Translations under genes and position numbers: made by a program
Part shown: piece after piece, positions 18,636 through 60,909 of the stretch
How the letters are laid out: every line of letters begins with the position of its first letter
Position numbering within the stretch: the stretch's first letter is position 1
The notes under the pieces: generated by a model
Seen by the model: the letters and a program-made list of their open reading frames with translations, nothing else
Told to the model about the DNA's origin: nothing
The model's database searches: none
Assembly (NCBI GenBank): GCA_964443875.1
Contig: CAYUET010000002.1
Location: forward strand, 70,082 to 134,081
Source: an uncultured bacterium
GTDB lineage: Bacteria > Auribacterota > JAFGBW01
Direction: 5' to 3'
DNA length: 64,000 nt

Positions 18636-18642
18636 GATGGAT

Positions 18643-24710: not shown

Positions 24711-24840
24711 TTAGACCATAAAAGCCTTAAATGTTAATATTATGTTGTTTTTTTGAAAAAAATATTGTAATGTATTTTTTGATGATGTTGATCAGAATTT
24801 AATGAATGGCAGGGATCTTAAGAAAGAGGAGCTGAAAAGG

Positions 24841-26229
24841 ATGAAAACAACAAAAAGATTATCTGTTAAAGGGAGTGCGCTGATTGTATCTATTATTTTT
24901 TCAACCCTTATCGGGATGGGGACTGTTGCGCTTCAGAATTTTCAATACCTGACACACAAGACGAACCATAAATCTTTTGAGGGTAATAAAGCCCGCTATA
25001 TGGCGGAAGCTGGTATTATGCTTGCCCTTGATGAGCTTAATAACCAGACTTCCTCCCCTTTTTCCGGAGCCGGGGATTTTTACTGGGCTTCTTCAGGCGG
25101 TAATATTTATACCCTCTCCCGTTCGGATATCGGGAGTGTGAATGTGACGGTTGATTATACAGACCCCAATTCCGTGGTGATTAAAAGTTATGGATTCTAT
25201 CAGAGTGTAAGAAAAGGTTTAGAAGTTAAGGCTATTAAGGCAGGCTCTTCAGCCATTAATCCCATTTTCCCGGGAGCCATTGCCGCCCAGTCCGACATTG
25301 TGACCATGAATTCTTTTACCGTGGATTCCTTTGCAAATGGGGTCTATGACGCTCTTCATCCGGGCTACAACGGGCATGTGTTTACCAAAGATGACAGTAT
25401 CAATTTAAAATCAGGAACCATTGTCAGAGGTCATGTTTACGCCCCTCCAAGTCCTGTTCCGGTTTTCAATACCGGAGAAAATTCCAACGGTAATGTGTAC
25501 TGGACCGCTGCAGATGAAACTGCAGCACATAATTGCGGCGGGAGTACAGGGGTTTTTACAGAGTTTAAACCGGTCGCTATTCCTCCTCATCTTTTAATGA
25601 CAGGCTCGCCTACTGCAGTTCTGTCAAGCGGGGGGAGTTATGGAAGCGGTCATTATACAGGGGCAACGGGTCTTGGAAACTTGACTTTTACCGGCGGTTT
25701 TTATAAAATAGATGGGGATATGGCTCTTGGCAACAGCAAGGTGCTGACCATTAAAGGAAACAGTGATATCTATATCACAGGAGACTTGTCTCTGGGGAAC
25801 GGAGCGATGATAATCAATTATACCCTGAAAGCGGATGGATCTGATCCTGACACCTTGCCTGACGTGGATAAGGTTTATACCCTGAGAATTTATGTGGACG
25901 GCGGACTCACCTTTTCTCAGGGCAATGAAGTGAATATGTACTGCAATTATGATGTCACCAAGCTTCAGCTTTACGGATGCGGGAACGGCTATTTTGCAAC
26001 CCCAGCTAAAAAAATCAATATTAAAAACGGAGGGTCATTTTTCGGATTTGTCTATGCCCCGTATTATGAGGTGGAATTTAATAATGCCAATGAGGTTTTC
26101 GGCGCCTTTGCCTCGTATCAGATTATTCCGAAAAACGGATCAAAGATTCATTTTGATGAACGTTTATGGGGCTTTGTGGACGGGGTGGCCCCGGATAAAT
26201 ACGGATTAAGCGGATGGGAGGAAATATGA
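24841..26229 (+). CDS. PilX-like minor pilin (type IV pilus or pseudopilus assembly protein, PilX_N domain)
   Basis: The N-terminus KGSALIVSIIFSTLIGMGTVALQN...KARYMAEAGIMLALDEL fits the PilX N-terminal domain. The ATG at 24841 has an AGAGGAG RBS. An alternative upstream ATG lies at 24802. Confidence 0.65.
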   Translation: MKTTKRLSVKGSALIVSIIFSTLIGMGTVALQNFQYLTHKTNHKSFEGNKARYMAEAGIMLALDELNNQTSSPFSGAGDFYWASSGGNIYTLSRSDIGSVNVTVDYTDPNSVVIKSYGFYQSVRKGLEVKAIKAGSSAINPIFPGAIAAQSDIVTMNSFTVDSFANGVYDALHPGYNGHVFTKDDSINLKSGTIVRGHVYAPPSPVPVFNTGENSNGNVYWTAADETAAHNCGGSTGVFTEFKPVAIPPHLLMTGSPTAVLSSGGSYGSGHYTGATGLGNLTFTGGFYKIDGDMALGNSKVLTIKGNSDIYITGDLSLGNGAMIINYTLKADGSDPDTLPDVDKVYTLRIYVDGGLTFSQGNEVNMYCNYDVTKLQLYGCGNGYFATPAKKINIKNGGSFFGFVYAPYYEVEFNNANEVFGAFASYQIIPKNGSKIHFDERLWGFVDGVAPDKYGLSGWEEI

Positions 26230-46527: not shown

Positions 46528-49008
46528 ATGGCCAGACAAATAATTTATATCCTGGTTTTTGCCGTGTCCTGCGGCTTCTGCCTGACGGGAAACTCCGTAT
46601 GGGGACTCAGTCCTCATTCTGTCATGGTTCAGTCTGAAGGCAGTGATTTTCGGGTGAATTATGACGAAGTGATTATCAGCGAGATTTCAAAGCTTGAAGA
46701 GGAATTGAAAAATCTGCCGGATAAGATTCAAAAGACTCCTGAGGATTATAAGGTTAAAATTGTTGAGGGCTTCACCCCTCACGGCAAGGATCTTTTGAAG
46801 CAGATGCTTAAGAGAGGGAAAATCACCCTCCTGGCCGCACCAGAGGGTACTCCGCTTAAAAATCTGGTGGAGGAGGTCGCAGATCCCAGAATGACAACCG
46901 TTTTCCGAATTTCCGACTACTACCTGGATCAGACTGTGAAATACAAGGCAACCCCCAGAGATGTTCACTGGGAGCTTTTGAAAAAAGATATTGCCAAACA
47001 TCTGGTAAAAAAACCTAACAAGAGGATTGTGGTGGAAGGCCCTTTTGCCCTTCAGGATGAGCTTTGGAACTACCTGGCCGGAGAGACGGGAGTTTTTGTT
47101 TTAAAACTTTTTGTCAATTACCCTAAAAAAATCCGAAAGGGGAAACTGGGCATTGCGGATGATAGTAAATCCGTGGAAAAATGGAACCTGATCCGTAAGA
47201 ATGAGCTGAATGATATTTATCCGCAGCTTCCCCATGCTCATTTTGTGGTTAATCTTGCGCCTGCCCAGGAATTTTATCCCTATTCCAACTTAAGGCTTAT
47301 GAATCTGTCAGACAAATCCTTTCATTCCAAAGACCGCTTTGCCAATGCCTTTCTGTCCATTCCTGACAACGGAACAGTGGATATTGTCACGGCCGGGGGG
47401 GGAGGAGATGTTTACGGGGCCATTCTGCAGGCCATGTCCCTGAAGGAAGTGCTTCTTAAGGCCGGTAAAAAAAATATTCGCTTCAGGGTTTTTACCTCGA
47501 ATTTGAAAAGGGGAAGCGAGAATCCCAAGGGCGGTCCGGCAGACATGAAAAAAATTCTCTACCCTGTAAAGGGCAAACTGAAATCGATTCCCCCCTGTAA
47601 AAACAGTCGTCATTTTTATCGTATTTTTGAGGGCATTGAGGTTGTTTCCTCTGTGAGCGATGATGAGAGGCGCGATATAGTTATCGATGGTAAAGAGCTT
47701 ACCACCCGGGTGGCTTTAAGTGACGGGGAAATTGTTGAGAAGGCAAAATCTTTAGGGATAGAAGTGCTTATGGCGGATGCGGCGGTCAGCGGAAAGGATC
47801 TGGCAGAGGATTACGAAGGGATGACATCAAAGGAATCCGTTTTTACCATAATCGGAGATATGGGAGGGGATATTGCGGCCCGTTTTCCTGTTCCCCGGAA
47901 CGGTAAAAATTATCCTGAGAAAGATGTGCGTTCCCCCAATACGGATACCCTGTTTCTGGATATGGCCTATCATTTGAAAAAAATCCAGCTTTCACGCGGC
48001 ATTGAGGATAAAACCTGGGTATCCATTGCCGCCTACGGCGGTGACGGGGAGCTTGGATATACCGGGCTTCAGTATCTGAAGGAAATTATAGGCTCTGAAG
48101 AGCTGCAGGCTGTGTTTTATAATCTGAAATTTCTTACGGCTCACAAATCGATCCTGGACCGTCTGCTTCAGTGGAATATTCACAGCGAGGTTTCCGGAAA
48201 TCTGATCAACAATATCCGGAAATGGATAGAGGAATATAAACCCAATGAATATGAAGAAAAAAGATCCCCCTGGAGCTTTGATCAGGCTTCACAGATCAAA
48301 GGTCCTCAGCAGACCATCCGCAACGGCACAAGAACCGTTGTAATGCCTGTGGAATATGTGAATACGATTTATGTGGCTCCTGAAACCTTAAGAGAGCGCA
48401 TTGACGACCAGATCAGCACTGAAGGAAAAGGGTGGTTTGATATTGACCAGGAACTCCGGTCAAAGTGTGAGCATAATCCCGTGGGAGAGCCCACGGGATT
48501 ATGCACGGAAATGACGGATCCCAACAATATCCGTGACCGTAAAAATGTCAATGTAAGACTTCTGGTGGATCATGTGAGAAAAGTATCCGGCTGCATGACC
48601 TTTAAAGAGGCCGTGCAATGGCTTTTCAGAAAGGGTGTTCTCGGGGGCGGAATCAATGCTTATCAGTTTGAAAAAGGGCTTCTTTTTCTCAAGCTGAGCG
48701 AGGTCTATCCCTCTGAGATTTTAATTCAGAATGAACTGCAGAGCCTGTCTGAAATATTTGTTTTACTGGAAACGCTGAATAAAAAGGAAGTGAATCCTAA
48801 GGAAAGGGAAAGAGTTCAGGCGCTTTATCATTTATTGAGTCAGTACATTCTGTACAAGGTCGGCGGGTTTGAGGAAACAGTCAAAGAGGATTTGAAGCTT
48901 ATGCCTTTTATTGCAGAATACTACCCTGTGCTTTATTTTCTGCTCGCAAACCGTGGTCCTTTGGAGGAACTGAAAATTTCCGGCGAAGCGGTTTCAAAGG
49001 CGGCCTAA
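46528..49008 (+). CDS. Large hypothetical secreted protein (826 aa)
   Basis: It has a signal peptide (MARQIIYILVFAVSCGFCLTGNSVWG) and three Gly-rich acidic loops (TAGGGGDVYG, IGDMGGDIA, AAYGGDGELGY). No family was recognised. Confidence 0.5.
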   Translation: MARQIIYILVFAVSCGFCLTGNSVWGLSPHSVMVQSEGSDFRVNYDEVIISEISKLEEELKNLPDKIQKTPEDYKVKIVEGFTPHGKDLLKQMLKRGKITLLAAPEGTPLKNLVEEVADPRMTTVFRISDYYLDQTVKYKATPRDVHWELLKKDIAKHLVKKPNKRIVVEGPFALQDELWNYLAGETGVFVLKLFVNYPKKIRKGKLGIADDSKSVEKWNLIRKNELNDIYPQLPHAHFVVNLAPAQEFYPYSNLRLMNLSDKSFHSKDRFANAFLSIPDNGTVDIVTAGGGGDVYGAILQAMSLKEVLLKAGKKNIRFRVFTSNLKRGSENPKGGPADMKKILYPVKGKLKSIPPCKNSRHFYRIFEGIEVVSSVSDDERRDIVIDGKELTTRVALSDGEIVEKAKSLGIEVLMADAAVSGKDLAEDYEGMTSKESVFTIIGDMGGDIAARFPVPRNGKNYPEKDVRSPNTDTLFLDMAYHLKKIQLSRGIEDKTWVSIAAYGGDGELGYTGLQYLKEIIGSEELQAVFYNLKFLTAHKSILDRLLQWNIHSEVSGNLINNIRKWIEEYKPNEYEEKRSPWSFDQASQIKGPQQTIRNGTRTVVMPVEYVNTIYVAPETLRERIDDQISTEGKGWFDIDQELRSKCEHNPVGEPTGLCTEMTDPNNIRDRKNVNVRLLVDHVRKVSGCMTFKEAVQWLFRKGVLGGGINAYQFEKGLLFLKLSEVYPSEILIQNELQSLSEIFVLLETLNKKEVNPKERERVQALYHLLSQYILYKVGGFEETVKEDLKLMPFIAEYYPVLYFLLANRGPLEELKISGEAVSKAA

Positions 49009-49032: not shown

Positions 49033-49581
49033 TTATTTGATATTTCCTTTGACGAAACTCATGAATTCCTGACGGGTGGCTCTGTCGCGGAAGCAGCCTA
49101 AAATGGAGCTGGTGATCATGGTGGCATTCTGTTTTTCAACCCCGCGCATGGCCGTGCAAAGGTGATAGGCTTCAATCACAACGCCAACTCCCTGCGGATT
49201 CAGGGCTTCTTCAATACACTGGGCGATCTGCTGGGTCAGCCTTTCCTGAACCTGCAGACGGCGCGCATAGGATTCCACAACCCGCATGATTTTGCTTAAA
49301 CCCACGATTTTTCCGTTGGGAATATAGGCCACATGGGCCTTTCCGTGGAAGGGCAAAAGGTGGTGCTCACACAGGGAATAAAGGCCTATGTCTTTTACAA
49401 CCACCATTTCATCATAGTTTTCATGAAAAACAGCGGATTTCAGGATTTGGATCGGGTCTTCCTTGTATCCTTTGGTGAGAAACTGATACGCTTTTTCAAC
49501 GCGTTCAGGAGTTTTTTCAAGCCCTTCACGTTTCGGGTCTTCTCCAATGGCTTTTAATATCTGAACAATGGCATCCTGCAT
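49033..49581 (-). CDS. folE: GTP cyclohydrolase I
   Basis: 182 aa. The motifs [18 protein letters not shown] and [12 protein letters not shown] match the FolE family. Confidence 0.9.
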
Positions 49582-49879: not shown

Positions 49880-50308
49880 ATGAATGGAACTTATGCTTAC
49901 TACAATCCGTTAAGGGAGCTGCACTATTTCCAGAAACAGCTCAGTGATTTATTTGAGGATTTTAATGAGCGTCGTGGTGAATATCCCCTTGTGAATATCT
50001 GGGGGAATTCTGAAGGTCTTCTGGTCACAGCAGAGCTTCCTGGTCTGGATGTGAAAGACATTCAGCTGACCGCCAAAGGGGATACTCTGACTCTGGAAGT
50101 TGAAAAAAAATCAGAGGTCATTGATTCACAGGGGATCTGTATTCACAGGAATGAAAGGGAAGGTGATCCCTTTATTAAAACAGTGAGGCTTCCCTATGAA
50201 GTAAACGGGGAGAATATTTCCGCAAAATATTCCAATGGTGTTTTAAAGGTAACACTGCCTAGGGCAGAAGCGGGAAAACCGAGAAAAATAACCGTAACAC
50301 AAGAATAA
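49880..50308 (+). CDS. Small heat-shock protein (Hsp20/alpha-crystallin family), 1 of 3
   Basis: It has an alpha-crystallin domain (LVTAELPGLDVKDIQLTAKGDTLTLEV...GVLKVTLPR). The RBS is AAAGGAG. Confidence 0.85.
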   Translation: MNGTYAYYNPLRELHYFQKQLSDLFEDFNERRGEYPLVNIWGNSEGLLVTAELPGLDVKDIQLTAKGDTLTLEVEKKSEVIDSQGICIHRNEREGDPFIKTVRLPYEVNGENISAKYSNGVLKVTLPRAEAGKPRKITVTQE

Positions 50309-50335
50309 TAACCGACAACAAAAAGGAGGCTGCAC

Positions 50336-50731
50336 ATGAATAACGATGCCAACAATAATAAAAAAGAAAATACCCGGCCTGAACTCACACAAGACAAACC
50401 TGTATTCACCCCGCTCACAGATATTTATGAATCAACGGAGTCGATTTATGTGGTTTGTGATGTTCCCGGGGTGCAGGAAAAAAACATTGATATTTCCCTT
50501 GAAAACGATGTGCTGACCATTACCGCCTACCAGGATGAGGAGCAGTACGAAGGGTACCAGGCCCTGTACAAAAGTTATGACAGGGGAATTTTTCAGAGAT
50601 CCTTCACGCTTTCTCAGACCATAGACAAGGCAAAAATCAAGGCCACTGTCAAACAGGGAGTCTTAAAGATTGAGCTTCCCAAGTCCGAAGAGGTGAAGCC
50701 TAAGAAGATATCTGTAGAAATTGAAAAATAA
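50336..50731 (+). CDS. Small heat-shock protein (Hsp20 family), 2 of 3
   Basis: VVCDVPGVQEKNIDISLENDVLTITA...GVLKIELPK. The RBS is AAAGGAGG. Confidence 0.85.
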   Translation: MNNDANNNKKENTRPELTQDKPVFTPLTDIYESTESIYVVCDVPGVQEKNIDISLENDVLTITAYQDEEQYEGYQALYKSYDRGIFQRSFTLSQTIDKAKIKATVKQGVLKIELPKSEEVKPKKISVEIEK

Positions 50732-50760
50732 AAATTCTTAAGAACAAGGAGGTGATTTCC

Positions 50761-51276
50761 ATGTTTAAGAATCTTATCCCATGGAAAAAAGGAAAAATGG
50801 AGGCGGCTCGGAAGAAGGAAGATTCATTTATGAATTTTCATAAACAGATGGATCAAATGTTTAATCAATTTCTGAGAGATTTCGATATGCCTGGTTTTGC
50901 TTTTCCTCCACTCAACAGATTTGAAAAGGGATGGATGAAGGCGCCTGAGGTGGATGTGGATGAAAATGAAAAGGAAATCCGGGTTACTGCCGACCTTCCG
51001 GGGATTGATGAGAAAGATGTGGATGTGTCGCTTGAAGGAAACAGTCTGACCCTCAAAGGGGAGAAGAAGGAGGAGAAGAGTTCAGGCCAATCGAAGGGAC
51101 GCCTGACGGAAAGGCGCTACGGCTCCTTTGAAAGAAGGATAGCAGTACCTTCGGATCAGATAGATCCGGCTAAGATCAGGGCTTCCATGAAAAAGGGAGT
51201 ACTGACTGTTCTTCTTCCCAAAATCAGAGGCAGGCAGGAGAATCAAAAAAAGATAGCGATTCAGACGGAGGATTGA
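50761..51276 (+). CDS. Small heat-shock protein (Hsp20 family), 3 of 3
   Basis: VTADLPGIDEKDVDVSLEGNSLTLKGEKK...GVLTVLLPK. The ATG at 50761 follows an AAGGAGGTGA RBS. The listed ORF from 50752 starts at a GTG inside that RBS. Confidence 0.85.
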   Translation: MFKNLIPWKKGKMEAARKKEDSFMNFHKQMDQMFNQFLRDFDMPGFAFPPLNRFEKGWMKAPEVDVDENEKEIRVTADLPGIDEKDVDVSLEGNSLTLKGEKKEEKSSGQSKGRLTERRYGSFERRIAVPSDQIDPAKIRASMKKGVLTVLLPKIRGRQENQKKIAIQTED

Positions 51277-51350
51277 TAATCTATGCCCTTAATCCGGCCG
51301 GTTTTTTCCGGCCGGGTTTATTTTTTATAAACGTTTAAAAGGAAAGAAAA

Positions 51351-52301
51351 GTGAAATATAAGGACTATTATGAGATACTGGGCATAGGGAAGAATGCTTC
51401 GGCAGACGATATTAAAAAGGCCTACCGCAAGCTTGCAAGAAAATACCATCCGGATGTGAACAAGGCCGCCGGGGCGGAAAATAAATTCAAAGACATCAAT
51501 GAAGCGAATGAAGTGCTGAGTGATCCTGAAAAAAGAAACCGCTATGATCACATGGGCAGTGCCTGGCAGAACGGGCAGGATTTTAACCCGCCGCCGGATT
51601 GGGAGCAGTACGGGTTTGGTAAAAGAAGAAGCGGAAGACAAAGCAATGCGGATTTTGGAAACTTCGGCGGATTCAGTGATTTTTTTGAATCCTTTTTCGG
51701 CGGTGGCGGCTTCGGGCAGGGCATGAGCCAGGAGGATATTTTTTCCGGAAGACACAACCGTCATGCCGCAGGACAGGATCTGGAAGCGGAAGTAAGCATC
51801 ACCCTGGAAGAAGCCTACAAGGGGGTAAATAAGACGCTTTCCTTTGAATCCAGAACCCATGGAGCCCGAAATTTTGATGTTAAAATTCCGGCTGGAATCA
51901 GTGACGGAGCGGTTTTAAGACTTAAAGGACAGGGGGGGGAAGGCCGTGGATCAGGTAAAAAAGGCGACCTGCTTTTAAAAATTCATCTTCAGCCTCATTC
52001 GAAATTCCGCATTAAGGGGTCTGATCTTGAAACGGATCTGGAAGTAAGTCCCTGGGAGGCTCTGCTTGGAACCAAGGTCAGTTTTACACTTCTGGACAAT
52101 CCCATCACCCTTACTATTCCGTCAGGCGCACAGTCAGGAAATCGGCTGCGGCTGAAGGGAAAGGGTATGAAAATGAAGAATAACGAGAGCGGGGATTTGT
52201 ACATTGTCGTTAAAATCATGAATCCCAAATACCCCACGCATGAGGAAAAAAAGTTATTTCAGGAACTGGCGGATATTTCCAAATTCAACCCGAGAGGGTA
52301 G
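51351..52301 (+). CDS. cbpA: Curved-DNA-binding protein (DnaJ homolog without zinc finger)
   Basis: The J domain is [36 protein letters not shown]-rich linker and C-terminal substrate-binding domains follow, with no CxxCxGxG repeats. It uses a GTG start. Confidence 0.8.
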
Positions 52302-52743: not shown

Positions 52744-55700
52744 ATGAAAAGAGTTCTGTTCTTTTTTTTCATGCTTTATTCCGGTTTCTGTTTTTCAGCT
52801 ACGTACACAGTAAGCAGCGACAGCGAGGCAGAATTCGCAGTCGGTACGCTGAGAGGATCTTTGCACCAGGCGGAGGCAAATCCGGGTCCGGATACCATTG
52901 TGTTTGATAGAGATATGACTATTAGTTTAACAAATATTAGCCGTGTTTTTGTTTATAATAATGAGGGGGTTACCATTGATGCCCAGGGGTACAATGTGAT
53001 CATCGACGGAACGGGTATGAATCTGGATCCTGGATGGCCTGCAGTTGGAATATGGCTTGTGGACACCGGGCACCTTTGGGGGGGGGGGCAGTTAGGCGGT
53101 AATGCGACAATAAGGGGAATTACTTTCAGAAATTGTGCCTATGGGGGCGCTTTGGTTTCATCCGGATCAGCGAATAATTCCTTTATTGATTGTACATTTC
53201 ATAACAATGGAGCCAGCGGTATTGTTGTCGATGGTACTGATGCTTCTTTGGACGGAAGTCAGAATACCTCCAATATCACGATTCAGAATTGTGTTTTTTA
53301 TAACCAGGCGCATAGCGGTGTTTATATTAAGAGGACTGAGGATGTTTCCATTGAAAACTGCGTAAGTTACAACAATACCCAGAATGGTTTTCTGATTGCT
53401 GAAAGTTCAAATGTAGATATCAGCAATTGCAGAACCTATTCCAATACCCAGAGCGGAATCTGGTTTATTTCTGATTGCCACAACAATTCTGTAACCGGAT
53501 GCGAAATCGGGGGAAGCGCAGGAGGCAACGGCTGGCCGGGTGTTATCATTTCAGGAACCTGCACGGACAACACCTTAAGAAATAATTCCATTACCCACAA
53601 TGGGGCTGAGGGAATAAAGATTGATGACCATTGCGAAACCACGACCATAGAAAATAATGTGATTGCTGAAAATATTTATTCAGGAATTCTGGTTACGGGT
53701 AGTTCAGGTTCCAGTACCATTATCAACAACACCCTTCTTGGAAATCAGCAGAACGGGATCTGGCTGATGGGGGCTTCCAACAATCGAATCCATAACAACA
53801 CCATTGGAACAAATTCTTCCGGGGCTGTATACGGCAATCGCTGGTGCGGGGTTCTGGTTTCAAGCGGATCAACGGATAATTTTATAGGTGGTGATACAGC
53901 GAGTCTCGGGAACCTCATTGTGAACAACCTTGCAGAAGGGGTAAAGGTGGATGGCTGGGATACGATCCGGAACCTGGTCCGATTCAATACCTATTATTCC
54001 AATGCGCAGGGCGGATACAGGAATGTGAACGGTGCCAACCAGGCGCTTCCAGTTCCTTACATTTACCCCCCGGCAACCTATACTTCTCCCCAGCAGGTTA
54101 CTGTTCACGGGCTGGGTACTCCCGGGACAGTGGTTGACATCTATATCAGTGATTCTCAGACTGATAAAACCCAAGCTCGGTATTATAAGGGAACTGTCGA
54201 GCCCAATGCGGACGGCGAGTTTTCCTTCACCTTTGATTATGACCATCCGGGGCAGATCATTACAGCTGTCGCACGCGACGGAGTCCGGAATTCCAGCGGC
54301 TTTGACGTGCAGATAACAGAAGGCGGCCTGACGGGAACTGTTCTGGATTCCAAGACCAAGATGCCGGTTTATGATGCGGAAGTTTATCTTTATGATTCCC
54401 AAAACCGGATTTATACCGCCACACGCACAGGCACGGACGGAAAATTTACTTTTGCACTTCTTCAGGGGACTTTTTCCATTGTTGTGAAGAAACAGGGGTA
54501 TCGCTTTCCTTCCATACTTACGGAGTCGCTTTCCGGTGCGGCCAAAGGGGAGGTTTTCAGTTTTCAATCTTCTCTGAATCTGGAAATTCCTGTGGATCAG
54601 GGGTATCCGCTGGATGTTAATCTGACCCTGGAAAAGGATAAGGTTTCTGCCGGAGATCCCCTTGGTGTTCAACTGGCAATAAACAATACTTCGACGGATG
54701 ATTATTCAAAAGTGAATCTTCGCTATTATCTTCCTCCCACCCTGAAACTGGCATCGTCCGCTCCTGTCCAGGTGAATGGAGAAACGGTCAGCCTGCAGAC
54801 GGAAACAGACGGTTTTATTCTGCCTCTTTCCAATATCAGGGCAGGAGATAACTTTACCATTCCCCTCGTTTTCTGGGTGTCCGGAGGGGCCGAGGAAAAA
54901 GAGTTTATGATCGGGGCAAGGGCCTATCAGGTTCGCGGCGGAAGTGCTCTTTATTTAAGTGACCTCCGCCTTAAGGAGGTTGCGGTTGTGCCGGATGAGT
55001 TCATGGAAAATTCAACCCTGATCGGCAAGGTCTTTCTGGATTCCAATGCAAACGGTATCCAGGATTACGGAGAAAAGGGAATTCCCAACGCGGTGATTTA
55101 CTCCGAGCAGGGACTTATCATTACGACGGATAAAAACGGTTTATATTCTGTGCCTGACATCACAGAAGGTTCCCATGTGTTCATGGTTAAAAGAAACTCT
55201 TTACCCAAAGGCATGACTCTGGAAAAAAATTCCATGATGGTTCACGTGCGTAAAGGTTCCATGCACAAGGTGAATTTTGCAGTGAAGGCGGAGAGTGCGG
55301 ATATCTCTGTGGATACCCCGGCTTCCACGATCATTCTTCAGGAGGAGATGAATCCTCCCGTTGCCTTTACCGAGGTTAATCTGCGGAAATATGAGAATCA
55401 GGGATTCAGAAAAACCGGAGAGGACCAATACCAGATGGAATTTGATATTGTGTCGAATTCGAGGCTTTATATCAAAGATTGGGATTTTGTCTTAAGGACC
55501 GTTTCGGATCAGAGGGAGGTGTTTGTAAAATCCTCCCAGCAAATTTCAATGCTTCCCAAACAATTTATAGTGCCCCTGAACGGGCGTCAGCTTTATGAAC
55601 TCAACGGAAAAAATCTGGAATATTTTTTAACAATCACCTATTCCAATGGAGTAAAGACAGAGACCCCGGCTCAGAAAATTAGAATTGAGCATAAGGGAAG

Positions 55701-58700
55701 CGGAATAATCCCGGGTTTGCTGCAATTTGAGGCCAGAAACCCGCTGAAATTGAAAACAACCCCGAATTTACCCAAACAGGGAGCTATTTCTGTTTCCGGG
55801 TATACCAGGGCTGATTCATCGCTGATCGTGAGCTGTGTTTCCCATGAGGAAATTCTTTTTGAACAGCTGATTGATTCGGATTCCAAGGGGCATTTTGAGC
55901 ATTCCTTTCTGGTGCCTTTCGGAGAATACGAAATTCGTCTTACCAATGAAAACGAAAAGGCCCCGTTTTATCAGAAATCCATTACTTTAAGCTCCAGCCA
56001 GTTGATTTTGGTCGCCATGGCGGAAGAGGAAATCGGAAAGCTCAGCAGCACCGGAAATATTGAGGTTGCCGGCAACAGTGATAAGTTTGATGAGGAATTA
56101 TATAACGAAGGCAAAGCGGCTTTTTACCTGAAAGGAAAAGTGAAGGGAAAGTATCTGCTTACCCTTTCCTATGATTCGGAAAGAGGAAAAACTCAGGATG
56201 ATGAGCTGTTTAATTATCTTGATCCGGATAAGTATTATCCCATCTACGGGGATTCCTCACAGACCGATTATGATGCAACAGACAGCGACGGAAAGCTTTT
56301 TCTGATGGTGGAATGGGACAGATCCAAAGCGCAATGGGGAAATTTTCAGACCCGTCTTAACGACGAATCTCTTTTGTTTTACAACCGTTCTCTTTACGGC
56401 GGAAAAGTGGAATACACCTCCTTATCTTCAACAAAGTTTGGAGATCCGGACATGCAGGTCATCCTTTTCGGATCTTCTTCACTTTCCCGTCAGGGCTTCA
56501 ATACCATTGAATCCACCGGGGGCTCTCTTTATTATTTGAGCCGGAGTGATATTGTGAAAGGCAGCGAGCAGGTGTTTTTAGAAGTCAGGGATACTGTTAC
56601 CGGGGAAGTCGTTGAAAAGATCGATCAGATCCGCAGTGTGAATTATGAGATGGATTATGACTCGGGCCGCATTGTTTTTACCTCTCCGGTTCCCAGAACT
56701 ATGAGGACCAGCCGTGTTACGGATACCAGCCTGAATTTCAGAAATCAGGTGTATATTGTGGTGACCTATGAATACAAACCGGACTCCCCGATTGAAGATG
56801 CAAATGCCGGCTTAAGAGTGGAAAAGGCTATCGGCGATCATGTTTCCGTGGGCACGACTTTAATTACAGAGGATAATGGAAGCAATGATAATGCTGAACT
56901 TAAATCTGTGGATGTGACTTCGCATATTACAGAAAACACGAAAATCCGCATGGAGGCGGCGGCAACGGATCAATATAATCCGAGGACGCTTTCCTCTCAG
57001 AACGGGGGCTTATCCTTTTCCCAGAATTCTTTGGGACGTGCGGATGATTCAGGGCATGCCTATTCCGTAGTGGTTTCCAACCAGAAGGATCAGAAAAGGG
57101 ATTTGTCTGTGTATTATACCAAAAGAGAGTCCGGATTTATTAATGAACGGGACTACAACGAAGCCGGTACGGAAAAAACAGGAGCCAACGCCCAGGTCAG
57201 GGTCTCTGAAAAGGTGAAACTTTTTTCCGAACTTTTCCATGAAACCACCGATGATGAAACCCAGATAGCCAAGGGTTATAAGAAGAAACTGGAAGGCCGC
57301 GCCGGAGTTGCCTGGCAGGCCCTTGAGAAACTGAGACTGGAAACGGAATATCACGGCATCAAAAAAGAAGTGCCGGATGATACGATCAATCTCTGGGGGC
57401 TGGCCGGGTATTATGATTTTTCGCAGAAAATGAGCGCTTTTCTGAAGCAGCAGGTCAGCGGGGCAGAAGATGACATGACCGCCACTCAGGGGGGACTGGA
57501 ATATCAGGTGACTGAACGTTTGCGTCTGGGACTTTCCCATACGGTCGGTGAAGAAGGGGATTATTCACAGGTCAATGCCCTGTGGGCCGTGGATAAAACA
57601 AGAGAGTTTTACATGGAGGCCCAGAGCGACGGATTAAACCAGGGCAGCGGAAATGATACCGAGCTGGTCGTGGGAATGAATGATGTTTTAAACCGTTATT
57701 CCTCCATGTATACGGAATATAAAATCCGCAGCAGCGGGGATTATTCCTATACCACGATCGGTTCAGGTTACCGTCATAAAATCAGTGATCTGACTCAGAT
57801 GTATATCAACTATGAAAATGAAACCCGTGACGATGACAGGGACAGCAATGTACTGGGAGGCGGGATCAGCTACTGCAAACCGGACAAAGCCTATCTTTCA
57901 ACCGGGGTGGAAGTCAGAAGGGATGAAACAACAGATGAGATCGAGCAGTGGCTCACCCAGAACAAGGCCAAATGGACCTTTGACTGCGGTCTTTCCCTGT
58001 TTGGAAAAGTGAATTATTCGCAGACAGACAATGAAACCCTGGACATCCGGCAGGCGGACTATAAGGAATACGCAACAGGAATAGCCTACAGGCCCGTGCT
58101 TCTGGATGTGGTTAATTTTCTTTTCAAATATACCCGTCTGACCGACCAGAATCCTGCGGAAAGAGAAGAGCCGGAATGGCTCTCCGAGCACAAGACCGAT
58201 GTGTATTCCGGTGAATTTTTATGGGATATCTGCAAATGTGTTCAATACTTTTTCAAATACGCCTGGAAACAGTCGGATTATGAATACACGTTTTCAGAAG
58301 AGGAATTTGAATCCGAGATCTCCCTGTGGATCAATCGCATCAATGTCTATATCACGCAGAATATAGGAACAGCCCTGGAATACCGGGTAAAGGATTACCA
58401 GACCCTGGATGAGAAAAAAGAGGGTTATGCTGCGGAATTGTTTTATGACCCTGTGGAAAATTTCAGGGTCACGGTAGGTTATAATTTTACGGATTTTTCA
58501 GACAATATGCAGTCCTTCAATGATTATGAAAACTATGGCCCTTATATTCGTTTCACCGGTAAGGCTGCCTTTGATGAACTGGAGATGCTTTCTCCCTTTA
58601 AGAAGGAATATTACAACTGGAGACTTTTCAAGAGTATGCCTGAAGACTTTAAAATTTCCGGGAAATTGGACCTGGCCTTTGGCTTTGTGGACAGGGATTT

Positions 58701-60909
58701 TGAGTGGAATCTTTCAAACATGGACCTCTGGGAAAAGAATTGGCGCTACCTTTACGGAGAAGATAAGGAAAATACCTATAATCCGGGTATGTACAGCCAG
58801 TTAAGAGTGAATACGGAATATCCTCTTTCGGATGAATGGGCGCTCTATTTTGATTTTTCAATTGATCCCCATATGGTCGCTTCCAAGTCAGATACTGTCC
58901 ATGTGACGAGTGAATCCGGGGACTCTGCGGAGGTGACTTTTTATTACTGGGCGTCAAATGACAAAACGATCTCGCGAAGTGTACGAACAAAAAATGGAAA
59001 TGCCTTTAATACGGGCGAACAGAATGTTCATGATAACACCATCGATTCTTATCAGATAGAGACCAGCTGGGGGGATACTTTTACCATTCCTGAAACAAAG
59101 CTTGATGAACAGATTGTACCCTGGAAGACACTTGCTTTAGGTTATAAGTCAGATGAGAATTATTTTAAGTTGAATGTACTGGGCGATATGACCGCCACCT
59201 ATAGCAGTGATGATCCCCTGAGACTGGTTGGAAACCGGGATTTCTGGCAGCCTCATTCCTGGCTTTATTTCTGGCAGCCCGGCCAGTATTATTACGGGAC
59301 TCAGGCCTTCGGGAAGGGAAGGCTGGATGACTCTCTTATTTTTTACAACCGTAACAGTTTTGCCCAATGGCTCACCTATGTGCGGGGCGCACAGTTTGCA
59401 ACGAACGTAGAGGGTCTCGGCCGTTTTGAAGGAGCCGTGGCAACGCCCATTACCCAGTGGGATCTTTATGACGGATACACGGACGTCAATAATGTGAGCG
59501 GAGCCTTCCGCTATAAGTCAGCCCTTGATGCAGAGGCCCCTGTTCAGATCGGAAGTACTTATGCCTTCAGGGCCGGGTACAACGATGAAGAGCTGGATTT
59601 TATGAACCAGGTTTTTGCAGGAGATTGCTATTTTACACTGTGGAATGATTATAAGGTAACTATGGAATATGCGGTCAGCAGCACAGAGACGGATAAGACC
59701 TCGGATATCTACGCTGAGAAATATATTGGTCAGGCTTTTAAACTGAATGTGGAACGCAAGGTTGATTTTGCTTCTTTTGAGCACACCTTAAGCTTGGATG
59801 CCTCGGGGATGACCAAGGATTTTATGTCCGCAGGGTCGGATTACCGTTTTACTTCCCTTGATCAGTTCTGGTCAAATCACCTTGATTTTTATGACCATCC
59901 CCAGTGGTTCAAGGATGAGGTGCTTCCTTGCAGGCTGGGTAACGGGCTTCGTGAAAACCGGAATGTATACAAGGCTGCTTGTATCTCCCAGAACAGTGAT
60001 AAGGTGACCAACCTTCTGCAGTTCATGTATGTGGAAAGCAATGAGGAGCAGGAATTCCAGGAAAGAAGGCTCCGTGAAGAGCTGACAGTTCCTGTGGAGG
60101 ATCTTTTTACCCTGCAGTTCATGGTATTGAACAACCATTACCCTGAAACTGAAGCCGGGATTGAGCCTCTGGCGAATCAGACCGATGTCGCCAAATATCT
60201 TTCGCCCAACGCGGATGAAAGGGATATTCTGAATAATTCCATTCTTGCCGGAGAGGATCCCTCCATAGGAGCTTACTCCACGGGAATCAAGGTGCCGCTG
60301 TTTGGAAAGAAGATAGAGTTGGTGGGTGTTTATGAATATACCAATAATTACGGGGATCAGTTCCCCCAGTTTATCATGCAGGATACATCCTATGGAAACC
60401 TTGTCAGCAACGACGACGGGCGTTTTGATTCCCCCGTCACCTTTCTGGATAGTCAGCAGATTTTTGACCTTCCTTCCTATGATTATTACAATATCTACAG
60501 AATGAAACTGTTTTTCTACCCTTGGGAACCGGTAACCCTTCAGGTGGCCTATACCAAGAATGAGAATAAATTTGCTTCGGGTATTGACGACAATATCAAT
60601 CATTTATTTTTTGAAGCCAAGTACCAGGATCCGGATAAAAAGTACCAGACGAGGATGAATTATACCCGTTCCAAGATGATGAATGTTCCGGATTATATGG
60701 AAACAGGAGACCTGGAATATGAGTCCCACGATAATTTTTTCACGGAGTTTGCCTACTTTTTTTCAAAGGATTCCAAGATGTATGTGCATTATGGTATTTT
60801 TGCAGGCATGACCGATTATACTTCAACCCCTTACCTGGTTTCTCCCTGGTCTTTGCCTACGCTGGATACCCGGAATATTGTTCGTGTGACCTATTCTAAA
60901 AAGTTTTAG
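52744..60909 (+). CDS. Giant secreted or surface protein (2,721 aa): parallel beta-helix repeats, Cna-B/CarboxypepD_reg-like and DUF11-like domains, and a long C-terminal putative beta-barrel region
   Basis: It has a signal peptide (MKRVLFFFFMLYSGFCFS). Residues about 100-430 hold roughly 10 PbH1-type repeats (NxxxNGxxI/V...). Cna-B-like modules follow (GTVLDSKTKMPVYDAEVYLYD...TDGKFTF and GKVFLDSNANGIQDYGEKGIPNAVIY...TDKNGLYSV), then a DUF11-like repeat. About 1,700 aa rich in Tyr/Asp/Asn/Gly follow, ending VRVTYSKKF. Confidence 0.8.
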   Translation: MKRVLFFFFMLYSGFCFSATYTVSSDSEAEFAVGTLRGSLHQAEANPGPDTIVFDRDMTISLTNISRVFVYNNEGVTIDAQGYNVIIDGTGMNLDPGWPAVGIWLVDTGHLWGGGQLGGNATIRGITFRNCAYGGALVSSGSANNSFIDCTFHNNGASGIVVDGTDASLDGSQNTSNITIQNCVFYNQAHSGVYIKRTEDVSIENCVSYNNTQNGFLIAESSNVDISNCRTYSNTQSGIWFISDCHNNSVTGCEIGGSAGGNGWPGVIISGTCTDNTLRNNSITHNGAEGIKIDDHCETTTIENNVIAENIYSGILVTGSSGSSTIINNTLLGNQQNGIWLMGASNNRIHNNTIGTNSSGAVYGNRWCGVLVSSGSTDNFIGGDTASLGNLIVNNLAEGVKVDGWDTIRNLVRFNTYYSNAQGGYRNVNGANQALPVPYIYPPATYTSPQQVTVHGLGTPGTVVDIYISDSQTDKTQARYYKGTVEPNADGEFSFTFDYDHPGQIITAVARDGVRNSSGFDVQITEGGLTGTVLDSKTKMPVYDAEVYLYDSQNRIYTATRTGTDGKFTFALLQGTFSIVVKKQGYRFPSILTESLSGAAKGEVFSFQSSLNLEIPVDQGYPLDVNLTLEKDKVSAGDPLGVQLAINNTSTDDYSKVNLRYYLPPTLKLASSAPVQVNGETVSLQTETDGFILPLSNIRAGDNFTIPLVFWVSGGAEEKEFMIGARAYQVRGGSALYLSDLRLKEVAVVPDEFMENSTLIGKVFLDSNANGIQDYGEKGIPNAVIYSEQGLIITTDKNGLYSVPDITEGSHVFMVKRNSLPKGMTLEKNSMMVHVRKGSMHKVNFAVKAESADISVDTPASTIILQEEMNPPVAFTEVNLRKYENQGFRKTGEDQYQMEFDIVSNSRLYIKDWDFVLRTVSDQREVFVKSSQQISMLPKQFIVPLNGRQLYELNGKNLEYFLTITYSNGVKTETPAQKIRIEHKGSGIIPGLLQFEARNPLKLKTTPNLPKQGAISVSGYTRADSSLIVSCVSHEEILFEQLIDSDSKGHFEHSFLVPFGEYEIRLTNENEKAPFYQKSITLSSSQLILVAMAEEEIGKLSSTGNIEVAGNSDKFDEELYNEGKAAFYLKGKVKGKYLLTLSYDSERGKTQDDELFNYLDPDKYYPIYGDSSQTDYDATDSDGKLFLMVEWDRSKAQWGNFQTRLNDESLLFYNRSLYGGKVEYTSLSSTKFGDPDMQVILFGSSSLSRQGFNTIESTGGSLYYLSRSDIVKGSEQVFLEVRDTVTGEVVEKIDQIRSVNYEMDYDSGRIVFTSPVPRTMRTSRVTDTSLNFRNQVYIVVTYEYKPDSPIEDANAGLRVEKAIGDHVSVGTTLITEDNGSNDNAELKSVDVTSHITENTKIRMEAAATDQYNPRTLSSQNGGLSFSQNSLGRADDSGHAYSVVVSNQKDQKRDLSVYYTKRESGFINERDYNEAGTEKTGANAQVRVSEKVKLFSELFHETTDDETQIAKGYKKKLEGRAGVAWQALEKLRLETEYHGIKKEVPDDTINLWGLAGYYDFSQKMSAFLKQQVSGAEDDMTATQGGLEYQVTERLRLGLSHTVGEEGDYSQVNALWAVDKTREFYMEAQSDGLNQGSGNDTELVVGMNDVLNRYSSMYTEYKIRSSGDYSYTTIGSGYRHKISDLTQMYINYENETRDDDRDSNVLGGGISYCKPDKAYLSTGVEVRRDETTDEIEQWLTQNKAKWTFDCGLSLFGKVNYSQTDNETLDIRQADYKEYATGIAYRPVLLDVVNFLFKYTRLTDQNPAEREEPEWLSEHKTDVYSGEFLWDICKCVQYFFKYAWKQSDYEYTFSEEEFESEISLWINRINVYITQNIGTALEYRVKDYQTLDEKKEGYAAELFYDPVENFRVTVGYNFTDFSDNMQSFNDYENYGPYIRFTGKAAFDELEMLSPFKKEYYNWRLFKSMPEDFKISGKLDLAFGFVDRDFEWNLSNMDLWEKNWRYLYGEDKENTYNPGMYSQLRVNTEYPLSDEWALYFDFSIDPHMVASKSDTVHVTSESGDSAEVTFYYWASNDKTISRSVRTKNGNAFNTGEQNVHDNTIDSYQIETSWGDTFTIPETKLDEQIVPWKTLALGYKSDENYFKLNVLGDMTATYSSDDPLRLVGNRDFWQPHSWLYFWQPGQYYYGTQAFGKGRLDDSLIFYNRNSFAQWLTYVRGAQFATNVEGLGRFEGAVATPITQWDLYDGYTDVNNVSGAFRYKSALDAEAPVQIGSTYAFRAGYNDEELDFMNQVFAGDCYFTLWNDYKVTMEYAVSSTETDKTSDIYAEKYIGQAFKLNVERKVDFASFEHTLSLDASGMTKDFMSAGSDYRFTSLDQFWSNHLDFYDHPQWFKDEVLPCRLGNGLRENRNVYKAACISQNSDKVTNLLQFMYVESNEEQEFQERRLREELTVPVEDLFTLQFMVLNNHYPETEAGIEPLANQTDVAKYLSPNADERDILNNSILAGEDPSIGAYSTGIKVPLFGKKIELVGVYEYTNNYGDQFPQFIMQDTSYGNLVSNDDGRFDSPVTFLDSQQIFDLPSYDYYNIYRMKLFFYPWEPVTLQVAYTKNENKFASGIDDNINHLFFEAKYQDPDKKYQTRMNYTRSKMMNVPDYMETGDLEYESHDNFFTEFAYFFSKDSKMYVHYGIFAGMTDYTSTPYLVSPWSLPTLDTRNIVRVTYSKKF
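53078..53088 (+). repeat. Homopolymeric G11 tract inside the giant gene (codons about 112-115, WGGGQ)
   Basis: Eleven consecutive G were counted directly in the sequence. They sit in-frame within the 5' part of the 2,721-aa ORF. Confidence 0.9.

What the first reader, a model, noticed from the sequence alone, without database searches (positions are those of the whole stretch)
52744..60909. Giant protein combining a beta-helix and Cna-B passenger with a roughly 1,700-aa C-terminal region that ends like an outer-membrane beta-barrel
The N-terminal third is a recognisable adhesin or enzyme passenger, with about 10 parallel beta-helix repeats, two Cna-B/CarboxypepD_reg-like Ig modules and a DUF11-type repeat. 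The remaining roughly 1,700 residues are rich in Y/D/N/G/T, with alternating hydrophilic and aromatic patterning. They contain an internal repeated motif ([DE]SL[LI]FYNR[SN], seen twice about 1,000 residues apart) and finish ...IVRVTYSKKF with a terminal Phe. That is the signature recognised by BAM for OMP insertion.

Classical autotransporter barrels are about 300 aa and LptD or usher barrels about 600-800 aa. A 1,700-aa C-terminal barrel-like region does not match any family I recognise. It may be a very large or multi-barrel translocator, or an S-layer-like sheet.
Basis: partly seen in the sequence, partly recalled or inferred. Interest (0 to 1): 0.6.

Follow-up and report, generated by a model that had tools for sequence, protein, structure and literature searches.

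The report
Giant protein with two tandem membrane barrels
This 2,721-residue secreted protein most likely ends in two separate, very large outer-membrane beta-barrels joined in one chain, a rare fusion of two uncharacterised barrel families rather than one 1,700-residue barrel.

Summary
The ORF (52744-60909, +, 2,721 aa) is real. Its N-terminal third holds a signal peptide, a parallel beta-helix and Ig-like modules.

The C-terminal ~1,700 aa is two modules, not one unit.

**Module 2 (aa 1944-2721).** It belongs to a small family of 185 cluster representatives among 1.84 billion. Nearly all 40 genome hits are Candidatus Omnitrophota MAGs. There it is a stand-alone 770-970 aa protein: usually a signal peptide and one TPR, then this module, ending ...R/K-K-F. 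Its model is weak (pLDDT 54.7) but matches only membrane barrels.

The two modules are remotely homologous (hhalign E about 1e-9; reversed controls E 0.15) and are not a recent duplication. The repeated FYNR motif is at chance level.

The fusion occurs only here and in one 45%-identical protein from an independent assembly.

Predicted multi-barrel chains and 38-40-strand barrels are already published, so this is a new variant of a known kind. Function is unknown. Barrel closure and which side of the membrane the N-terminal domains occupy remain untested.

The parts
52744..60909 (+). Whole gene, 2,721 codons plus stop
   Evidence: ORF list and translation. A 45%-identical full-length homolog, P0002, comes from an independent assembly.
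52744..52800 (+). Probable Sec signal peptide (MKRVLFFFFMLYSGFCFSA, aa 1 to about 19)
   Evidence: Read from the sequence: a positive N-terminus followed by a hydrophobic core. No predictor was run, so this is an inference.
53041..54018 (+). Right-handed parallel beta-helix region (about aa 100-425)
   Evidence: Pfam Beta_helix E 5e-35 and NosD E 4e-19. TIGR03804 repeat, 5 stretches. Weak PDB sequence matches to mannuronan C5-epimerases, E 4e-6.
54328..54504 (+). CarboxypepD_reg-like Ig module (aa 529-587)
   Evidence: Pfam PF13620, E 1.1e-12.
54610..54864 (+). DUF11-like segment (aa 623-707), sub-threshold
   Evidence: Pfam PF01345, E 0.26, below its cut-off. Many homologs carry clear DUF11 domains.
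55027..55227 (+). SdrD_B (Cna-B-like) Ig module (aa 762-828)
   Evidence: Pfam PF17210, E 5.9e-10.
55228..55860 (+). Unassigned segment (aa 829-1039) between the last recognised domain and module 1
   Evidence: No family hit. Conserved in P0002.
55861..58572 (+). Module 1 (aa 1040-1943): giant predicted outer-membrane beta-barrel with a small inserted beta domain (about aa 1260-1320)
58543..58572 (+). Internal barrel-end motif YIRFTGKAAF (aa 1934-1943), the retained C-terminal signature of module 1
   Evidence: Translation. Family members end F-x-R-x-x-G-K-[FY].
58573..58650 (+). Linker of about 26 aa between the two modules (DELEMLSPFKKEYYNWRLFKSMPEDF)
   Evidence: Translation. pLDDT is below 50 for module 2 residues 1-24, and the first predicted strand is at residues 27-39.
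58573..60906 (+). Module 2 (aa 1944-2721): second predicted outer-membrane beta-barrel, about 26-30 long strands
60877..60906 (+). C-terminal motif IVRVTYSKKF ending in Phe
   Evidence: Translation. 49 of 55 long family representatives end in F.
56365..56391 (+). Motif copy 1, ESLLFYNRS (aa 1208-1216)
   Evidence: The N-R-x-L-Y-G part is conserved in the module 1 family.
59329..59355 (+). Motif copy 2, DSLIFYNRN (aa 2196-2204)
   Evidence: FYNR is not conserved in the module 2 family. The recurrence is at chance level.

Best explanation
The gene encodes a Sec-exported outer-membrane protein whose C-terminal 1,682 residues form two independent beta-barrels in tandem.

Barrel 1 (aa 1040-1943) has roughly 34-42 strands and belongs to a widespread unannotated family. 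Barrel 2 (aa 1944-2721) has roughly 26-30 strands and belongs to a family found almost only in Candidatus Omnitrophota. A linker of about 26 residues, probably periplasmic, joins them.

The gene arose by fusing two families that are otherwise encoded separately.

Inferred mechanism: the chain is exported by Sec. The barrel-assembly machinery (BAM) then inserts each barrel, using the retained internal end of barrel 1 (...YIRFTGKAAF) and the true C-terminus (...VTYSKKF). The pair of barrels anchors the N-terminal beta-helix and Ig-like stalk at the envelope. The stalk is most likely on the cell surface, as a carbohydrate-binding or carbohydrate-modifying adhesin-like module.

Shown: the modular structure, the homologies and the predicted barrel fold. 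Inferred: membrane insertion, which side the N-terminal part faces, and function.
For: **Two modules, each able to stand alone**
- More than 1,126 homologs of the C-terminal region cover only about 53% of it, namely aa 1040-1943.
- In about 70 of the 120 listed homologs the module reaches the last 1-4 residues, ending F-x-R-x-x-G-K-[FY].
- Module 2 occurs as a stand-alone protein, in most cases with a signal peptide and one TPR. It was found in 3 database proteins and 40 genome loci, 31 of which were read as 768-966 aa ORFs ending ...KF.
- In an exhaustive profile search, 49 of 55 long representatives end in F.

**Fold**
- The two module profiles align over about 380-407 columns at E 3.5e-9 to 5e-10. 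Reversed controls give E 0.15.
- Dyad hydrophobicity in predicted strands is 5-6 sd above shuffles.

**The fusion is real**
- P0002 has the same architecture at 45% identity and comes from a different assembly with different flanking genes.

**Precedent**
- Predicted multi-barrel chains with linkers of 22 +/- 13 residues, and predicted single barrels of 38 and 40 strands, are described in PMC8346858.
Against: - Model coordinates could not be inspected, so barrel closure, exact strand numbers and the position of the inserted domain are unverified.
- The module 2 model is low-confidence (pLDDT 54.7, from 5 sequences). A poor model can give misleading structural matches.
- Neither barrel end matches the textbook hydrophobic pattern at position -3 (K and A here).
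- Nothing shows which side of the membrane holds the N-terminal domains. Some module 1 relatives carry a peptidoglycan-binding OmpA domain N-terminal to the barrel, which argues for a periplasmic N-terminal part in those proteins.
- There is no expression or localisation data.
Confidence: 0.75

Rival explanations
1. Functional rival, compatible with two barrels: the protein is a polysaccharide-handling export device. The N-terminal beta-helix stays in the periplasm as an epimerase- or lyase-like module, as AlgG does. One or both barrels serve as the polymer's outer-membrane pore, as AlgE, PgaA, BcsC and PelB do.
For: - The beta-helix matches NosD and AlgG-type repeats and mannuronan C5-epimerases. 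By general knowledge, AlgG and NosD are periplasmic.
- Stand-alone module 2 has the TPR-plus-barrel layout of PgaA, BcsC and PelB.
- In some loci it lies next to TIM-barrel glycoside-hydrolase-like genes and a PilZ-domain protein.
- One family representative is fused to a GH116 domain.
- OmpA domains lie N-terminal to the barrel in module 1 relatives.
Against: - The epimerase matches are weak and are generic beta-helix repeats (AlgG model 8 bits against a 700-bit cut-off).
- No synthase or glycosyltransferase gene lies next to this gene.
- Most stand-alone module 2 genes sit among lipid and protein-export housekeeping genes, not polysaccharide operons.
- Known polysaccharide porins have 16-18 strands (general knowledge).
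- The other N-terminal domain types in the module 1 family are typical of surface proteins.
Confidence: 0.2
2. Module 2 is not a transmembrane barrel. It would be a soluble or peripheral beta-rich domain attached after a single giant barrel.
For: - The module 2 model is poor: 344 of 778 residues have pLDDT below 50.
- No Pfam barrel family hits this protein's module 2.
- Many module 1 relatives carry non-barrel periplasmic tails after the barrel.
Against: - Its profile aligns to the module 1 barrel strands at E about 1e-9, and reversed controls fail.
- The first five predicted strands show very strong dyad hydrophobicity, 3.3-5.4.
- The family-wide terminal Phe and a signal peptide in stand-alone members.
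- Weak OMP_b-brl hits in 6 of 31 members.
Confidence: 0.1
3. The two modules merge into one super-barrel of about 65-70 strands instead of two separate barrels.
For: - An engineered tandem of two 8-strand barrels joined by a very short linker can form one larger barrel (Arnold et al., as cited in PMC8346858).
- Closure of each barrel was not verified here.
Against: - Each module exists alone in many organisms, with its own terminal aromatic end.
- The internal end motif is retained.
- The linker is about 26 residues, like published multi-barrel linkers and unlike the 2-residue linker of the engineered fusion.
Confidence: 0.05
4. The long ORF is an artefact: a misassembly, or a lost stop codon joining two neighbouring genes.
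For: The module 1 and module 2 families are otherwise always encoded separately.
Against: - The frame is uninterrupted.
- P0002, at 45% identity from another sample and assembly, has the same continuous architecture including the junction.
- No module 1 gene lies within 10 kb of any stand-alone module 2 gene, so read-through between neighbours is not the source.
Confidence: 0.02

Closest known systems
Predicted multi-barrel outer-membrane proteins (Solan, Pereira, Lupas, Kolodny and Ben-Tal 2021, PNAS; PMC8346858)
   Same: - One chain holds two non-overlapping segments, each full-length homologous to single-barrel proteins.
- A linker of about 26 residues falls within their 22 +/- 13.
- The fusion is lineage-specific rather than universally conserved.
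   Different: - 27 of their 34 architectures include an 8-strand barrel. They found none with a 24- or 36-strand barrel, and the largest partner reported was LptD in an 8-26 architecture.
- Here both barrels are large (about 34-42 and about 26-30 strands).
- Neither barrel is homologous to a family with a solved structure.
- A 1,039-aa non-barrel N-terminal region is attached.
Predicted 38- and 40-strand barrel families (families 003 and 002 of PMC8346858)
   Same: Module 1 has a comparable predicted size, larger than any solved single-chain barrel.
   Different: Whether module 1 belongs to either family could not be tested, because their sequences and supplements were not available.
SprA, the 36-strand translocon of the type 9 secretion system (PDB 6H3I, 8GL8)
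   Same: A very large single-chain outer-membrane barrel.
   Different: - Only a distant Foldseek match: TM 0.13-0.16, about 6-8% identity.
- No type 9 components were seen near the gene.
SlpA of Deinococcus radiodurans (30-strand barrel with periplasmic coiled coil and SLH domain; PDB 8AE1, 7ZGX)
   Same: - It is a large barrel with a long N-terminal non-barrel part.
- Some module 1 relatives carry a peptidoglycan-binding OmpA domain in the equivalent position.
   Different: - TM is only 0.27, and there is no detectable sequence similarity.
- This protein has no SLH or OmpA domain.
Classical autotransporters (type Va secretion)
   Same: Signal peptide, then an N-terminal beta-helix 'passenger', then a C-terminal barrel ending in Phe.
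   Different: - No Autotransporter (PF03797) match.
- The barrel is not 12-stranded, and there are two barrels.
TPR-plus-barrel polysaccharide exporters (PgaA, BcsC, PelB)
   Same: Stand-alone module 2 proteins have an N-terminal TPR followed by a barrel. PgaA and PelB appear among the structural matches.
   Different: - There is only about one TPR motif.
- The barrel is much larger than 16 strands.
- The window protein has lost the TPR.
- Most gene neighbourhoods are lipid or protein-export housekeeping genes.

Membership tests
Multi-barrel outer-membrane protein chains (PMC8346858) | Two or more non-overlapping segments, each full-length similar to a single-barrel protein | tested here: met
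   Module 1 aligns end to end with proteins that finish with it. Module 2 aligns over 97% of its length with stand-alone proteins. The partner families are uncharacterised rather than barrels of known structure.
Multi-barrel outer-membrane protein chains (PMC8346858) | A distinct linker between barrels (median 22 +/- 13 residues) | tested here: met
   About 26 residues lie between ...GKAAF and the first predicted strand of module 2.
Multi-barrel outer-membrane protein chains (PMC8346858) | Barrel-closing contacts within each segment, and none between segments | not testable with these tools
   Model coordinates and contact maps were not available.
Outer-membrane beta-barrel fold (BAM substrate) | All-beta meander of long amphipathic strands whose structural neighbours are membrane barrels | tested here: met
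   See for module 1, and for module 2 (low-confidence model).
Outer-membrane beta-barrel fold (BAM substrate) | C-terminal beta-signal: terminal aromatic residue with alternating hydrophobic residues at -3, -5, -7 | tested here: inconclusive
   A terminal F is present and conserved across the family. Position -3 is K in module 2 and A in module 1, which departs from the textbook pattern. Positions -5, -7 and -9 are Y, V, V in module 2.
Classical autotransporter (type Va) | 12-strand C-terminal barrel matching Pfam Autotransporter (PF03797) | tested here: not met
   There is no such Pfam match at E up to 1. The barrels are far larger.
LptD | Match to the LptD/OstA families and a 26-strand barrel with an N-terminal jellyroll | tested here: not met
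   [not shown]
Type 9 secretion translocon SprA | Sequence or close structural similarity to SprA, with type 9 genes nearby | tested here: not met
   Foldseek TM is 0.13-0.16. No type 9 genes appear among the neighbours examined.
TPR-plus-barrel polysaccharide exporters (PgaA, BcsC, PelB) | A multi-TPR periplasmic domain, a 16-strand barrel, and an operon with a synthase | tested here: not met
   The window protein has no TPR. Stand-alone relatives have about one TPR. The barrel is much larger. No synthase lies next to the gene. GH and PilZ neighbours occur in only a minority of loci.
38/40-strand barrel families 003/002 of PMC8346858 | Sequence membership in those families | not testable with these tools
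   The family sequences are not in the text held, and no supplements are held.

The most novel reading that the evidence does not exclude
The fusion may be a 'Rosetta stone'. In Omnitrophota, the stand-alone TPR-barrel protein (module 2 family) would be a dedicated outer-membrane partner of the giant-barrel surface proteins (module 1 family). It would help assemble, gate or secrete them, making a previously unrecognised two-barrel display or secretion system. In this lineage that system would be hard-wired into one chain of about 65-70 membrane strands, the largest single-chain beta-barrel membrane assembly proposed so far.

Hints in favour:
- Stand-alone module 2 genes sit among envelope-biogenesis genes: secA-lnt-lipid A acyltransferase; lepA-lepB-pgsA-plsY; bamA nearby.
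- Many module 1 proteins carry post-barrel tails with TPR-like matches (all but one below the Pfam cut-offs), and module 2 proteins begin with a TPR.
Probability: 0.15. Interest if true: 0.8.

Novelty: new variant of a known kind. Interest (0 to 1): 0.55.

Why it matters
- **Assembly.** If confirmed, this would be a natural single chain carrying two very large barrels, roughly 65-70 membrane strands in total. That is far beyond the solved 36-strand record and beyond the mostly 8-strand-based multi-barrel architectures predicted so far. It poses a concrete question: how does the assembly machinery handle an internal barrel end followed by a second large barrel?
- **Unannotated families.** It exposes two barrel families with no curated model. 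One has more than 1,000 members across several phyla. The other is largely restricted to Omnitrophota, an uncultured phylum whose envelope is essentially unstudied, and lies among envelope-biogenesis genes.
- **A testable link.** The fusion gives a testable hint that the two families work together.
- **Limits.** Everything rests on predictions, and the general phenomena (multi-barrel chains, barrels of about 40 strands) have already been reported computationally.

Tried and rejected
- **Internal duplication.** BLASTP of module 1 against module 2 found only the short motif (E 0.19), and the motif recurrence is at chance level. Recent duplication is rejected. Only remote profile-level homology remains.
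- **Known families.** Pfam and NCBIfam gave nothing for the C-terminal region. The sequence and profile searches of the PDB gave only TPR hits, from the stand-alone relatives' N-termini.
- **Word-index searches for module 2.** As a single sequence and as a profile, it returned only 3 proteins. The exhaustive profile search and the genome scan were needed.
- **Deeper alignment for the module 2 model.** The model had to be built from 5 sequences.
- **AlphaFold-database fold search.** This library was unavailable.
- **Conserved operon.** The flanks of this gene (HSP20 x3, DnaJ-like, AsnC-like) differ from those of P0002. No module 1 gene lies near stand-alone module 2 genes.
- **More fused genes.** The metagenome scan with the junction found only the contig already known for P0002's cluster.
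- **Organism identity.** Exact look-ups returned no names. No tRNA or Rfam hits were found in the window. An affinity to Omnitrophota is inferred only from the homologs.
- **Promoter and terminator scan.** It gave nothing above shuffles.
- **Literature.** Searches found no description of either family. The supplement of PMC8346858 is not held.
Full report
**1. The observation**

The ORF is exactly as described: 52744..60909 on the + strand, ATG start, 2,721 aa.

Pfam confirms the N-terminal third:
- Beta_helix, E 5e-35, three stretches
- NosD, E 4e-19
- CarboxypepD_reg at aa 529-587, E 1e-12
- SdrD_B at aa 762-828, E 6e-10
- DUF11, only E 0.26, below its threshold

NCBIfam adds five parallel beta-helix repeat stretches. 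After about aa 830 no Pfam or NCBIfam model matches.

The protein ends IVRVTYSKKF. The two motif copies are at aa 1208 (ESLLFYNRS) and aa 2196 (DSLIFYNRN).

The composition claim holds only in part. Y and D are enriched in the C-terminal part; N, G and T are not.

The motif recurrence is not significant:
- BLASTP gives E 0.19.
- Nine-residue window pairs with at least 6 of 9 identities number 8, against 4.8 +/- 3.2 in shuffles.
- FYNR is not conserved in the family of the second half.

**2. The C-terminal region is two modules**

A homolog search with aa 1051-2721 returned more than 1,126 proteins. Apart from the protein itself and one other, they cover only about 25-54% of the query, most of them about 53%.

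That part is aa 1040-1943, here called module 1. In about 70 of the 120 listed homologs it runs to within 1-4 residues of the protein's C-terminus, ending F-x-R-x-x-G-K-[FY]. The window protein keeps this end internally as ...YIRFTGKAAF at aa 1934-1943.

The source names on the hits include Omnitrophica, Scalindua, Delta- and Gammaproteobacteria and Elusimicrobia. The N-terminal parts vary widely: DUF11, SdrD_B, Big_1/Invasin_D3, PKD, Calx-beta, beta-propellers and OmpA. Some members hit the generic OMP_b-brl model at their C-terminal end.

The remaining 778 aa (aa 1944-2721, module 2) were at first shared only with P0002. P0002 is a 2,778-aa protein, 45% identical over its full length, from a different sample and assembly with different flanking genes.

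Searching module 2 alone found stand-alone proteins of 777-928 aa, 27-28% identical over 97% of the module. A scan of one genome per species found 40 loci. Thirty-one are titled Candidatus Omnitrophota or Omnitrophica, one Candidatus Aceula lacicola, six 'uncultured Planctomycetia/Planctomycetales', and two simply 'bacterium'.

In the 31 loci read, the gene is a stand-alone ORF of 768-966 aa. Most have a clear signal peptide, and all end in F, typically R-x-Y-Y-R-[RK]-K-F. The N-termini carry one TPR motif.

An exhaustive profile search of 1.84 billion cluster representatives found only 185 matches. Of the 55 longer than 700 aa, 49 end in F. None but the window protein contains module 1.

A metagenome scan with the junction region recovered only the contig of P0002's cluster. 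No module 1 gene lies within 10 kb of any stand-alone module 2 gene.

The protein is therefore a rare, real fusion of two families that are otherwise encoded separately.

**3. Fold**

*Module 1.* It was modelled with 40 sequences, giving pLDDT 79.5 and pTM 0.70. The model is an almost uninterrupted up-and-down run of long strands. There are 34 from model residue 294 to the end, plus up to 8 more N-terminal ones, with a small domain of short strands at model residues 223-282.
- Foldseek ranks Deinococcus SlpA (30 strands) first at E 1.5e-8 but with TM only 0.27. SprA (36 strands) reaches TM 0.13-0.16.
- The fold class is therefore clear, and no solved structure has this size.

*Independent support that does not rely on the models:*
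- The module 2 family profile aligns to the module 1 family profile over about 380-407 columns at E 3.5e-9 to 5e-10. Reversed-sequence controls, which keep composition and periodicity, reach only E 0.15.
- Six of 31 module 2 family members weakly hit OMP_b-brl.

*Further support, which uses the strand boundaries of the models:* family-averaged hydrophobicity alternates within the predicted strands 5-6 sd above within-strand shuffles in both modules.

I could not inspect coordinates. Barrel closure and exact strand numbers remain unverified.

**4. How it most likely works**

*Shown:*
- a signal-peptide-like N-terminus (read from the sequence)
- a modular layout of beta-helix and Ig-like region, then barrel 1, then a linker of about 26 residues, then barrel 2
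- each barrel family ends in an aromatic residue

*Inferred:* Sec export, followed by insertion of both barrels into the outer membrane. Insertion would use the internal and the terminal barrel ends. The barrels would sit side by side, anchoring the N-terminal region.

The linker length matches the 22 +/- 13 residues reported for predicted multi-barrel proteins (PMC8346858).

The side of the membrane that holds the N-terminal region is open.
- The domain types seen across the module 1 family are typical of surface proteins. A barrel of about 40 strands could in principle pass or enclose folded domains.
- Against this, some relatives carry a peptidoglycan-binding OmpA domain between the Ig arrays and the barrel. 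The beta-helix also resembles periplasmic AlgG- and NosD-type proteins.

I put surface display at roughly even odds.

**5. Context of the stand-alone module 2 family**

Thirteen Omnitrophota loci place the gene on the same strand directly after lepA, lepB, pgsA, plsY and a small ORF. At least four place it after a ~313-aa gene identified in L002 as a lipid A acyltransferase; in L002 that gene is preceded by secA and lnt. A minority place it next to TIM-barrel glycoside-hydrolase-like genes and a PilZ protein, with bamA nearby in one locus.

This suggests an envelope-biogenesis or export role but does not define one.

Many module 1 proteins from Omnitrophota and Scalindua carry 80-290-aa tails after the barrel end. 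These tails have helical, TPR-like matches, all but one below the Pfam cut-offs, while stand-alone module 2 proteins begin with a TPR. Together with the fusion, this is a weak hint that the two families interact.

**6. Comparison with what is known**

Predicted multi-barrel chains, and predicted single barrels of 38 and 40 strands, were reported by Solan et al. 2021 (PMC8346858). In that survey 27 of 34 architectures contain an 8-strand barrel, and none contains a 24- or 36-strand barrel.

A 2026 survey of 580,890 AlphaFold barrel models treated strand counts above 26 as rare and excluded them (bioRxiv 10.64898/2026.03.07.710327).

The present protein meets the two testable criteria for a multi-barrel chain. 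It fails the membership tests for autotransporters, LptD, SprA and the TPR-barrel polysaccharide exporters (see the membership table). Whether module 1 belongs to the published 38- or 40-strand families could not be tested.

**7. Verdict**

It is a new variant of a known kind: a passenger-bearing double barrel built from two large, uncurated barrel families. It occurs in only two known lineages.

Confidence that the C-terminal region is two separate outer-membrane barrels is about 0.75. Function is unresolved.

Interest is moderate (0.55). The architecture is unusual and raises testable questions about assembly and partnership. All the evidence is predictive, and the general phenomena are already published.

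Noticed in passing
L010:5437-12340, L002:4277-12325, L021:3709-12331, L001:4801-16330: Stand-alone module 2 genes in Omnitrophota sit in a few recurring contexts:
- after lepA-lepB-pgsA-plsY and a 111-aa ORF (13 loci)
- after a ~313-aa gene identified in L002 as a lipid A acyltransferase, preceded there by secA and lnt
- next to TIM-barrel GH-like genes and a PilZ protein
- with bamA 1.4 kb downstream in L001

This suggests an envelope-biogenesis role for an uncharacterised TPR-barrel family restricted largely to one phylum.
   Followed up: partly
Proteins P0026, P0030, P0037, P0043, P0046, P0066, P0100 and others (C-terminal 80-290 aa): Many module 1 family proteins continue past the barrel end (...G-P-[FY]-[IV]-R-[IM]-T-G-K) with a conserved [FL]-Y-D-R-[ST]-P-E-E start and helical tails. 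The tails give TPR-like matches, all but one below the Pfam cut-offs. Some instead carry LytR_C-type repeats. Internal barrel ends are therefore common in this family.
   Followed up: partly
window 56212-56256 (about aa 1157-1171; module 1 residues about 118-133): The motif L-D-P-D-K-Y-Y-P-x-Y-G-D-x-S is invariant or nearly so across 40 family members. It lies in one of the lowest-confidence loops of the module 1 model (pLDDT below 50). It could be a ligand, metal or partner site.
   Followed up: no
Protein P0174 (1,490 aa, from the exhaustive search): This module 2 family representative has complete GH116 N-terminal and catalytic domains fused upstream and no obvious signal peptide. It may be a real enzyme-barrel fusion or a gene-calling artefact.
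   Followed up: partly
window 49880-52301: Three tandem HSP20 genes are followed by a DnaJ-type co-chaperone gene, directly upstream of the giant gene. A divergently oriented GTP cyclohydrolase I gene lies at 49033-49581.
   Followed up: partly
window 15534-18677 (-) and 19810-22950 (+): Two divergently oriented paralogous ORFs of about 1,046 aa (27% identical over their full length) have hydrophobic N-termini and no Pfam match.
   Followed up: partly
window 43613-46351 (-) and 46528-49008 (+): A 912-aa GH94-like protein (supersandwich and catalytic domains) lies next to an 826-aa ORF with only a weak DUF1152 match.
   Followed up: no
L010:12430-15633 (-) and equivalents in L007-L009, L027, L029, L040: A conserved ORF of about 1,066-1,083 aa with no Pfam match lies convergently, immediately downstream of the stand-alone module 2 gene, in at least 7 loci (an eighth, L039, is cut off by the contig end).
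   Followed up: no
window 22913-24493 (-) and 24802-26229 (+): A full-length DUF4301 protein (E 1e-173) and a DUF7305-containing protein are both uncharacterised.
   Followed up: no
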